The position numbers were made by a program. Positions 10,668 through 10,887 of a stretch of 64,000 bases of DNA are shown piece after piece. Location of the stretch: the NCBI GenBank assembly GCA_951406725.2, contig OX597828.1:42966001-43030000 (forward strand), read 5' to 3'. Each line of letters begins with the position of its first letter. Position 1 is the first letter of the stretch. Origin of the DNA: Octopus vulgaris (taxonomy: Eukaryota).

Positions 10668-10714
<47 letters not shown>

Positions 10715-10853
10715 ATATTTCGGAATGGTCATATTGCCAGTTTAGCCAATAAAAACACACGCACTATATATTTGGTGTTATTCCGAAATATAACAATATC
10801 TGTTTCAACACACGACTTCACATAAAAAATCTTGCACAACAAATATTTAAACG

Positions 10854-10887
<34 letters not shown>

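What the first reader, a model, noticed from the sequence alone, without database searches (positions are those of the whole stretch)
10707..10855. 149-bp miniature shares the exact inverted-arm start of the 6.7-kb element: evidence for fixed-site twin priming
Both insertions begin their inverted arm at the same nucleotide (...aacaatat, position 32051) and end their forward tail within 3 nt of each other (32107 vs 32110). In both, the forward strand stops just past that internal site (overlaps of 20 and 47 nt) with 3-nt microhomology at the junction. The old copy (8400-9380) also ends at about the 32051 site. Inference: each nicked (TA)n strand primes reverse transcription, one at the tail end and one at an ATAT-like site ~55-60 nt upstream. 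This would be a programmed version of L1-type twin priming and could explain PLE 'tail' and inverted-pLTR architecture.
Basis: partly seen in the sequence, partly recalled or inferred. Interest (0 to 1): 0.8.

Follow-up and report, generated by a model that had tools for sequence, protein, structure and literature searches.

The report
Octopus Penelope-like retroelement mini-insertion in (TA)n
The 149-bp segment is a tiny two-armed insertion of an octopus Penelope-like retrotransposon whose ends fall at the same two fixed sites as a full 6.7-kb copy nearby, a natural example of the two-site start of reverse transcription already shown in the test tube for this class of elements.

Summary
Window 10707-10782 is the exact reverse complement of 31976-32051, and 10780-10855 equals 32032-32107. 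The 6.7-kb complex (25385-32110) has the same layout. It is an inverted arm starting at 32051, a 106-nt forward partial copy starting at 32005, then a full 4576-nt unit. Both junctions show 3-nt microhomology. An older copy (about 80% identical) also ends at the 32051 site next to (TA)n.

[quoted passage not shown] Its closest named protein is from Octopus vulgaris.

The two (TA)n-adjacent boundaries lie 56-59 nt apart and bracket the known PLE "tail". Here the tail encodes residues 10-28 of the ORF. Frangieh et al. 2024 showed in vitro that a PLE protein cleaves and extends both target strands. It starts reverse transcription at two fixed internal RNA sites that delimit the tail.

Three specifics rest on two events and have rivals:
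- annealing to an ATAT site;
- one start site per strand;
- collision of the two cDNAs on a single RNA.

No genome-wide test was possible. I class it as a new member of a known kind, of moderate interest.

The parts
10670..10706 (.). (TA)n left flank of the miniature
   Evidence: The tract 10670-10710 merges with the first ATAT of the arm.
10707..10782 (-). Miniature, inverted arm. It is the reverse complement of unit positions 4442-4517 (window 31976-32051) and starts at the inner site.
   Evidence: Exact match; no extension possible either way.
10780..10855 (+). Miniature, forward arm. It equals unit positions 4498-4573 (window 32032-32107) and includes the tail (10800-10855). 10780-10782 (ATT) is shared with the inverted arm.
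   Evidence: Exact match.
10856..10878 (.). (TA)n right flank of the miniature
25339..25384 (.). (TA)n left flank of the 6.7-kb complex
25385..27431 (-). Inverted 5'-truncated copy. It is the reverse complement of 30005-32051 (unit 2471-4517), starts at the inner site and lacks the tail.
   Evidence: 99.854% over 2048 columns; repeats I1 and I2; differences listed.
27429..27534 (+). Upstream partial forward copy (106-nt pseudo-LTR), equal to 32005-32110. 27429-27431 (TTT) is shared with the inverted arm. It holds the ORF start codon at 27450.
   Evidence: Exact match; sequence.
27535..32110 (+). Full-length unit (4576 nt), followed by (AT)n at 32111-32132
27450..31379 (+). [quoted passage not shown]
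32048..32051 (+). Inner start site (ATAT of AACAATAT; the same site at 27472-27475), 26 nt into the ORF
   Evidence: 3 of 3 tail-less (TA)n-adjacent boundaries fall here: 25385, 10707, 9379.
32052..32110 (+). Tail, 59 nt (56 nt in the miniature). It is 66% A+C and encodes ORF residues 10-28 in the upstream copy. Its 3' end is the outer start site.
8412..9379 (+). Older 5'-truncated copy (78-82% identical). It ends at the inner site without a tail, next to (TA)n at 9383-9430.
   Evidence: tblastn hit at 76%.
9219..9246 (+). Hammerhead-ribozyme core motif (CUGAUGA, 17 nt with a 6-bp stem, GAAA) in the old copy. The young unit has CUGAUGC at the same place (31891-31918).
   Evidence: No Rfam hammerhead match.
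46326..46531 (+). Diverged forward 3'-end fragment of a related family, lying between two (TA)n tracts. Its tail-like last 57 nt end in CCGTAA next to (TA)n.
   Evidence: 66.7% over 57 nt, E = 0.012-0.027; sequence; alignment. The homology is weak.

Best explanation
The 149-bp segment is a minimal, abortive two-ended insertion of an octopus Penelope-like element (PLE) into a (TA)n microsatellite. The 6.7-kb complex is the same product with long cDNAs.

Proposed mechanism:
1. The element's GIY-YIG endonuclease cuts both strands of the (TA)n target.
2. Both 3'-OH ends are extended by the element's reverse transcriptase.
3. Synthesis starts at one of two fixed places in the RNA. The outer site is at unit position about 4573-4577. 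The inner site is at 4513-4517, 56-59 nt upstream. Both lie inside the first 85 nt of the ORF.
4. The stretch between the two sites is the PLE tail, so an arm started at the inner site lacks it.
5. The 3' ends of the two antisense cDNAs are then joined at 3-nt microhomology, giving an inverted arm plus a forward arm.
6. In the miniature each cDNA was only 76 nt long when joined.
7. In the large complex the inner-site cDNA reached 2047 nt. The outer-site cDNA copied a whole unit plus 106 nt of an upstream partial unit.

Shown directly by the sequence: the architecture, the boundaries, the microhomologies, the overlap of tail and ORF, and the protein domains.

Inferred: priming from both strands and internal initiation. 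These rest on analogy with the in vitro behaviour of the Anolis Poseidon element. Whether one or two RNA molecules are used is left open.
For: **Architecture and boundaries**
- Exact architecture and junctions.
- All 6 strong matches to the last 411 nt of the unit in the window end at one of two places.
- The inner site is used at 25385, 10707 and 9379.
- The outer site is used at 32110 and 10855, and at the internal tandem junction 27534.
- A diverged relative at 46531 also ends in CGTAA next to (TA)n.
- The old copy is about 20% diverged, so it is an independent event at the same inner site.
- Flanks of the miniature and the complex share nothing beyond (TA)n.

**Protein**
- Weak RVT_1 match, E = 0.0016. 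Drt2 match, E = 1.4e-5. A DRT1 chain matches the profile at 2.1e-5.
- Y371, D373 and D374 are invariant in 25 of 25 aligned relatives.
- The C-terminal 139 aa fold with pLDDT 86. The best PDB matches are I-TevI, UvrC and R.Eco29kI GIY-YIG domains.

**Tail and ORF**
- The ORF start at 27450 lies in the upstream partial copy.
- The first residues align with the N-termini of relatives at 26-36% identity, so the tail is coding.
- This matches PAc, where the starts lie 111-118 nt into the ORF.

**Literature**
- Frangieh 2024, main text read: both strands are cleaved and extended. There are two adjacent internal start sites, and the tail is the sequence between them.
- Craig 2021, passages and sections 11 and 20 read: an inverted 5'-truncated copy, a pseudo-LTR and a one-sided tail are typical of PLEs. 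Clades bearing the linker motif target (TA)n.
Against: - There are only two young events, and they are 100% identical in their shared sequence. Their independence rests on different flanks alone.
- No genome-wide sample could be collected.
- The in vitro work found no difference in start site between strands. Here 2 of 2 inverted arms use the inner site and 2 of 2 forward ends of the same insertions use the outer site.
- The published start site lies in an AC-rich stem-loop. Here the 91 nt around the sites fold no better than shuffles: -2.7 kcal/mol, z = +1.15, with 180 of 200 shuffles folding at least as well.
- The tail is 56-59 nt, not the 30-40 nt described.
- The inner site ends in AUAU and the outer in UA, so some pairing with the (TA)n primer cannot be excluded.
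- The miniature's junction could also arise from one microhomology deletion (25461-32031 equivalents) within a full complex.
- The near-perfect 2-kb inverted repeat could be affected by assembly. This was not testable.
Confidence: 0.65

Rival explanations
1. One reading: programmed twin priming on one RNA. [quoted passage not shown] The other anneals to the AUAU at 32048-32051. The outer-primed cDNA then runs into the inner-primed one and stops 20-47 nt past it.
For: Both forward arms begin 20 and 47 nt upstream of the inner site, and both junctions have 3-nt microhomology. Rough nulls for two such coincidences give 0.0001 under a uniform model and 0.0005-0.018 under exponential truncation with mean 300-2000 nt. 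These nulls are my own models. (TA)n is self-complementary, so both nicked ends could pair with AUAU. The two arms of the miniature are both 76 nt, as expected for two polymerases running for the same time.
Against: - n = 2, and the pattern was found after the fact.
- Better A/T runs at 31987-31993 (7 nt) and 32040-32044 (5 nt) were used by none of the 3 inner-site boundaries. Pairing alone therefore does not pick the site.
- In vitro, the site is not homologous to the target and does not differ between strands.
- The large complex would need a tandem RNA of at least 6.7 kb.
- The forward starts (32005, 32032) bracket the ORF start codon at 32026, so they may instead be RNA 5' ends.
- The old copy has an inner-site end with no partner arm.
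Confidence: 0.3
2. The miniature is a deletion derivative. A full inverted-plus-forward complex inserted at 10707. A later microhomology-mediated deletion, favoured by the long inverted repeat, removed everything between arm position 4442 and forward position 4498.
For: Removing the equivalents of 25461-32031 from the large complex reproduces the miniature apart from the last 3 nt (coordinates). The junction has 3-nt microhomology. From general knowledge, not tested here: long inverted repeats are unstable.
Against: The retained parts are equal in length from the outer ends (76 and 76 nt) rather than symmetric about the palindrome centre. No other remnant is present. The large complex has the same kind of junction without any possible deletion history. 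Even if true, the inverted-arm start at 10707 would still be an independent use of the inner site.
Confidence: 0.12
3. The 149-bp unit is a member of a non-autonomous miniature family. It would be copied as a whole, inverted arm included, from an RNA that carries the recognition region, so the shared arm start is inherited and not re-created.
For: The forward arm contains both start sites and the tail. The unit is 100% identical to the master, so it is very young.
Against: No second copy of the 4442/4498 junction exists in the 64-kb window. In PAc the RNA must extend about 55 nt beyond the start site. For the outer site, a solo miniature lacks that sequence. The left end would have to coincide again with the inner site by chance.
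Confidence: 0.08
4. The two end points reflect two alternative 3' ends of the RNA (processing or termination). Priming would then occur at RNA termini, not by internal initiation.
For: Frangieh et al. note that RNA-seq read ends fall on the same positions as the start sites. A hammerhead core motif lies in the 3' region of the old copy.
Against: In vitro, the dominant product did not change when the RNA 3' end was moved. The hammerhead-like motif lies about 130 nt upstream of the inner site, not at it, and is altered (CUGAUGC) in the young unit. Both sites lie inside the conserved N-terminal coding region. An RNA cut there could not be the mRNA, though it could still serve as template.
Confidence: 0.12
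5. Segmental duplication, gene conversion or an assembly artefact produced the shared boundaries.
For: The arms of the large complex are 99.85% identical, which is a known difficulty for assemblers. Craig 2021 says so for PLE structures.
Against: The flanks beyond (TA)n are unrelated. The miniature is too short to be an assembly fold-back. The arms differ at 3 places, as real paralogous copies do. The old diverged copy shares the boundary.
Confidence: 0.04

Closest known systems
PAc, a Poseidon-clade PLE of Anolis carolinensis, characterised in vitro (Frangieh et al. 2024, PMC11167929; main text read)
   Same: There are two fixed start points for reverse transcription a few tens of nt apart, and their spacing is the tail. 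They lie shortly after the ORF start, at the junction of pseudo-LTR and ORF. Both target strands are used, the target is AT-rich and the template is a tandem RNA.
   Different: The clade differs: here the endonuclease has a CX4CxxC linker. The target is a (TA)n microsatellite. The tail is 56-59 nt instead of 30-40 nt. No stable stem-loop is predicted at the site. The sites here share 2-4 nt with the target. The evidence here is genomic structure only. The paper's main text does not discuss inverted genomic arms: 'inverted' occurs once, for a blocking nucleotide.
General PLE insertion architecture (Craig et al. 2021, PMC8557442, Fig. 2 legend and text passages read)
   Same: A partial tandem copy forms a pseudo-LTR. 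An inverted 5'-truncated copy sits next to it. A short extension (tail) is present at one end only. Insertion is into (TA)n.
   Different: The pseudo-LTR is only 106 nt. The miniature shows the whole architecture in 149 bp with no body. That paper attributes the tail to endonuclease-mediated resolution of an intermediate.
L1 twin priming
   Same: An inverted 5' part and a forward 3' part are joined at microhomology. The explanation is a second target strand priming on the RNA.
   Different: In L1 the internal priming point varies and the two parts are adjacent pieces of one RNA. Here the point is fixed, and in the large complex the arms duplicate 2047 nt. Target-site duplications cannot be read within (TA)n.
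Octopus Naiad elements (Naiad_Ovul, Naiad_Obim, Naiad_Omin; supplementary file 1 of Craig et al. 2021, passages seen)
   Same: PLEs of octopus genomes that insert into (TA)n.
   Different: Naiads carry the endonuclease at the N-terminus. Here it is C-terminal.

Membership tests
Penelope-like elements, canonical C-terminal EN+ | Reverse transcriptase domain with a YxDD catalytic motif | tested here: met
   RVT_1 at E = 0.0016 (18.6 bits, below the 29.6 cut-off). Drt2 at 1.4e-5. PDB profile hit to a DRT1 chain at 2.1e-5. Y371, D373 and D374 are invariant in 25 of 25 sequences. The matches are weak but consistent.
Penelope-like elements, canonical C-terminal EN+ | GIY-YIG endonuclease at the C-terminus of the same ORF | tested here: met
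   Model of the last 139 aa has pLDDT 86.1. Top Foldseek matches are I-TevI (E = 2.3e-3, prob 1.00, TMt 0.71), UvrC and R.Eco29kI; none reaches E <= 0.001. Invariant Y647, Y663, G665, R674, E725 and N737. Pfam gave no GIY-YIG hit.
Penelope-like elements, canonical C-terminal EN+ | CCHH motif inside the endonuclease core | tested here: met
   C651 is invariant and C656 is 90% or more conserved between the GIY and YIG strands. H678, H694 and H699 are invariant. Assigning these residues to the motif is my own reading of the description.
Penelope-like elements, canonical C-terminal EN+ | Pseudo-LTR from a partial tandem copy, an inverted 5'-truncated copy and a one-sided tail | tested here: met
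   27429-27534, 25385-27431 and 32052-32110.
Penelope-like elements, canonical C-terminal EN+ | Hammerhead ribozyme in the pseudo-LTR | tested here: inconclusive
   No Rfam hammerhead match in 4 scans. The core descriptor of Craig 2021 (CUGANGA, 7-17 nt, GAAA) matches the old copy at 9219-9246. That is 1 of 4 matches in the window, with 0.93 expected by chance. The young unit has CUGAUGC there.
Penelope-like elements, canonical C-terminal EN+ | RT groups with reference PLEs, next to telomerase RTs, in a phylogeny | not tested
   No named reference PLE or TERT sequences were at hand. The 48 relatives found are unnamed, except for the Octopus vulgaris predictions.
Neptune / Nematis type (linker-bearing clades) | CX2-5CxxC zinc-finger-like linker between RT and EN | tested here: met
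   C624-x4-C629-xx-C632 (CTDNYCTVC) is invariant in 25 of 25 sequences. Which of the two clades it belongs to was not tested.
Hydra clade | No CCHH, a CxCX5C linker, a DKT motif, and elements under 3 kb | tested here: not met
   CCHH-like residues are present. The linker is CX4CxxC. KDHK is invariant (K125, D126, H127). The unit is 4576 nt. Features taken.
Naiad clade | N-terminal GIY-YIG endonuclease and a CxC motif | tested here: not met
   The endonuclease occupies the last ~120 residues.
Two-site internal initiation as in PAc | Two fixed start points whose spacing equals the tail | tested here: met
   3 boundaries at the inner site and 3 at the outer site (2 next to (TA)n, 1 at the tandem junction) among the 6 strong matches. 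This is met only at the level of genomic end points.
Two-site internal initiation as in PAc | Start sites lie shortly inside the ORF, at the junction of pseudo-LTR and ORF | tested here: met
   The ATG is at 27450. The inner site is 26 nt into the ORF and the outer site 82-85 nt. The N-terminus is conserved in relatives.
Two-site internal initiation as in PAc | [quoted passage not shown] | tested here: inconclusive
   The inner site ends in AUAU and the outer in UA, both compatible with (TA)n. Longer A/T runs nearby were not used.
Two-site internal initiation as in PAc | [quoted passage not shown] | tested here: not met
   The tail is 66% A+C against 58% for the unit. However, no stable fold is predicted (z = +1.15).
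Two-site internal initiation as in PAc | Both target strands are cleaved and extended by the protein | not testable with these tools
   Needs biochemistry. The inverted arms are consistent with it.
L1-type twin priming | Inverted and forward parts are adjacent pieces of one RNA, with a variable internal priming point | tested here: not met
   The priming point is fixed in 3 of 3 boundaries. The arms overlap by 2047 nt in the large complex.
L1-type twin priming | Microhomology at the inversion junction | tested here: met
   ATT and TTT.

The most novel reading that the evidence does not exclude
In vivo, one cleaved palindromic (TA)n target is extended from both ends on a single tandem RNA, with the two fixed start sites divided between the two ends. 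The outer-primed cDNA would then be halted 20-47 nt after meeting the inner-primed duplex. That halt would set the inversion junction and so create the inverted pseudo-LTR architecture of PLEs. The 149-bp miniature would be the smallest possible product. This joining step is not described in the main text of the 2024 in vitro paper.
Probability: 0.3. Interest if true: 0.55.

Novelty: new member of a known kind. Interest (0 to 1): 0.35.

Why it matters
How PLEs build their tandem and inverted repeats and their one-sided tail was named an open problem in 2021. It was partly answered in vitro in 2024.

This locus gives a clean natural product from another clade and another phylum. Both start sites and the joining step can be read at single-base resolution in 149 bp. 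It also shows that the tail is N-terminal coding sequence here.

It points to a cheap genome-wide test in octopus assemblies: whether start-site choice depends on the strand, and how the two cDNAs are joined. It does not change the picture of the class.

Tried and rejected
- **Genome-wide copies.** One scan of genome contigs (bacteria and archaea) with a 34-nt pattern across the inner site found 0 matches, as expected, and says nothing.
- **Rfam.** 4 scans covered the complex, its 3' end, the diverged fragment and the old copy. They gave only microsatellite-driven miRNA noise and no hammerhead.
- **Pfam.** The whole ORF gave 0 families at E <= 0.01.
- **RNA structure at the start sites.** None beyond chance.
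- **Partner arm for the old copy.** A sensitive BLAST of the whole unit against 6500-10000 found only the two collinear blocks plus microsatellite matches.
- **Other PLE families in the window.** tblastn with the RT-EN part found only this family at 3 places.
- **The element at 15052-15389.** It has 44-nt inverted ends plus a one-sided 45-nt extension between (TA)n tracts. It did not align convincingly with the unit, so I did not count it as a further example.
- **'Penelope-like' plus 'twin priming' in the paper library.** 3 papers hold both terms. Judged from the search listing only, none is about PLE mechanism.
- **Supplements not seen.** The supplementary figures of Frangieh et al. (S1B, S2), which show genomic ends and read ends, may bear on strand or site usage. 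Of Craig et al.'s supplement I saw only the passages matching 'Octopus' and 'cephalopod'.

Full report
**What is there**

The window is AT-rich eukaryotic DNA with no N. It holds 72 perfect (TA)n tracts of 20 nt or more, 3159 nt in all.

I number a forward unit F as 27535-32110 (4576 nt). Exact comparison and a self-BLAST give two insertions of one architecture, each inside (TA)n.

- The miniature is: (TA)n, then 10707-10782 (reverse complement of 31976-32051), then 10780-10855 (equal to 32032-32107), then (TA)n.
- The large complex is: (TA)n, then 25385-27431 (reverse complement of 30005-32051; 99.854% over 2048 columns), then 27429-27534 (equal to 32005-32110), then 27535-32110, then (AT)n.

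The junctions share 3 nt, ATT and TTT. None of the exact matches can be extended by a base. So every number in the finding is right: the inverted arms start at 32051, the forward ends are 32107 and 32110, and the overlaps are 20 and 47 nt.

One caveat applies. The last four bases at the inner boundary are ATAT and the outer one ends in TA. Both boundaries are therefore defined only to within about 4-6 nt against the microsatellite.

**Other copies in the window**

A sensitive BLAST of the last 411 nt of F found 6 strong matches: the query itself, the inverted arm, the old copy, the upstream partial copy and the two arms of the miniature.

The old copy (8412-8947 and 8980-9379, 78-82% identical) ends at the 32051 site. 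It is followed directly by (TA)n and has no tail. To its left lies unrelated unique sequence, and no partner arm was found.

A further weak relative is a 206-bp piece between two (TA)n tracts at 46326-46531. Its last 57 nt are 66.7% identical to the tail (E = 0.012-0.027) and end in CCGTAA next to (TA)n, like the miniature's ACGTA.

In total, 3 of 3 tail-less ends sit at the inner site. The tail-bearing ends sit at the outer site.

F contains 73 alternating A/T runs of 4 nt or more, 6 of them in its last 300 nt. Reuse of one run in two further events has probability 0.028 to 0.0002 under a model where any such run will do. This is my own arithmetic.

**What the element is**

The ORF 27450-31379 (1309 aa) has 48 relatives in the protein collection. 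The best is 98% identical and named as an Octopus vulgaris predicted protein.

- Reverse transcriptase: the matches are weak but agree. RVT_1 gives E = 0.0016, Drt2 gives 1.4e-5, and a DRT1 chain gives 2.1e-5. The YxDD residues are invariant in 25 of 25 aligned sequences.
- Endonuclease: the last 139 residues fold confidently (pLDDT 86). They match I-TevI, UvrC and R.Eco29kI GIY-YIG domains best.
- Linker: a CX4CxxC linker and Cys/His residues within the endonuclease are invariant.

By the descriptions in Craig et al. 2021, this is a canonical C-terminal-endonuclease PLE of the linker-bearing kind (Neptune or Nematis type). It is neither Hydra nor Naiad. I did not test the clade by phylogeny.

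The same paper describes a pseudo-LTR, an adjacent inverted 5'-truncated copy, a one-sided 30-40-bp tail and (TA)n targeting as typical PLE features. Its supplement lists (TA)n-inserting Naiads in octopus.

No Rfam hammerhead was found in 4 scans. The old copy does carry the CUGANGA, 7-17 nt, GAAA core descriptor with a 6-bp stem at 9219-9246. The young unit reads CUGAUGC there.

**The tail is coding**

The ORF's ATG (27450) lies in the 106-nt upstream partial copy. The inner site is 26 nt into the ORF and the outer site 82-85 nt. The first residues (M-x-IPK...N-x-CF-x-TR...) align with the very N-termini of relatives that are only 26-36% identical. The start codon is therefore probably real, and the tail encodes residues 10-28.

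**Comparison with what is known**

A literature search found Frangieh et al. 2024. I read its whole main text.

- Reverse transcription starts at two adjacent sites inside the RNA, 111-118 nt into the ORF.
- These sites are not homologous to the cut DNA.
- Start sites did not differ between strands.
- The template is thought to be a multi-copy RNA.

The octopus locus fits it in layout: two fixed ends, both just inside the ORF, with arms on both strands.

The paper's main text does not discuss inverted genomic arms. No paper in the library links PLEs to twin priming as a mechanism, judged from the listing only.

1. Annealing to an ATAT site. The 7-nt run at 31987-31993 and the 5-nt run at 32040-32044 were passed over in all 3 cases. 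Pairing alone therefore does not choose the site. It cannot be excluded as a contributor either.
2. One site per strand. This holds in 2 of 2 insertions here, but the old copy has an inner-site end with no partner, and the in vitro data show no strand bias.
3. The forward cDNA stopping just past the inner site. My rough nulls give 0.0001 to 0.018 for two such coincidences, which is suggestive. But the forward starts (32005, 32032) bracket the start codon at 32026. They may simply be RNA 5' ends, in which case two RNAs, or a dimer with two RNAs, would be involved.
4. The miniature's origin. A single microhomology deletion in a full complex would also give the miniature's junction.
5. RNA structure. 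Folding gives no stable structure at the sites (z = +1.15), unlike the stem-loop reported for PAc.

**Rejected alternatives**

Segmental duplication is excluded by the unrelated flanks. An assembly artefact cannot explain the miniature or the diverged old copy.

**What stayed unchecked**

- The genome-wide breakpoint survey could not be run.
- I did not look at the supplementary figures of Frangieh et al.

**Verdict**

It is a new, very compact example, from an octopus PLE, of a known architecture whose mechanism was largely worked out in vitro in 2024. The single-RNA collision model remains a testable refinement.

Noticed in passing
window 15052-15389: A 335-bp AT-rich element lies between two (TA)n tracts. 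It has 44-nt inverted ends (95% complementary) and a 45-nt extension on the right side only. The layout resembles an inverted arm plus a tail, but it did not align convincingly with the PLE unit and could be a MITE inserted at TA.
   Followed up: partly
window 9219-9246, 31891-31918, 46343-46372: A hammerhead core motif with a 6-bp stem is canonical in the old copy (CUGAUGA...GAAA). The young unit has CUGAUGC. The diverged fragment has GUGAACA with a different but still paired stem (GUCGC/GCGAC). Rfam reports no hammerhead in any of the three.
   Followed up: partly
window about 28200-29010 (ORF residues about 250-520): A long Asn/Ser/Thr-rich low-complexity stretch sits inside the PLE ORF and stays open. 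It looks like microsatellite expansion within the coding region, between the conserved N-terminal part and the RT.
   Followed up: no
protein P0046: An Octopus vulgaris protein annotated as dynein regulatory complex subunit 6-like is 97% identical to 20% of the RT-EN query. A fragment of this PLE seems to have been built into a host gene model.
   Followed up: no
whole window: There are 72 perfect (TA)n tracts of 20 nt or more (3159 nt, 4.9% of the window). 44 non-repeat segments of 40-600 bp lie between neighbouring tracts. Two of them (33786-34056, 61004-61283) contain tRNA-like strings by eye, suggesting SINEs that also sit in (TA)n.
   Followed up: no
window 27526-27545 and 32102-32112: AACGT occurs both at the end of the tail and at the first bases of the unit (…AAACGTACT|AACGTGAG…). 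The 3-nt difference between the two outer ends (32107 vs 32110) may therefore reflect slippage or a choice between two similar pentamers.
   Followed up: no
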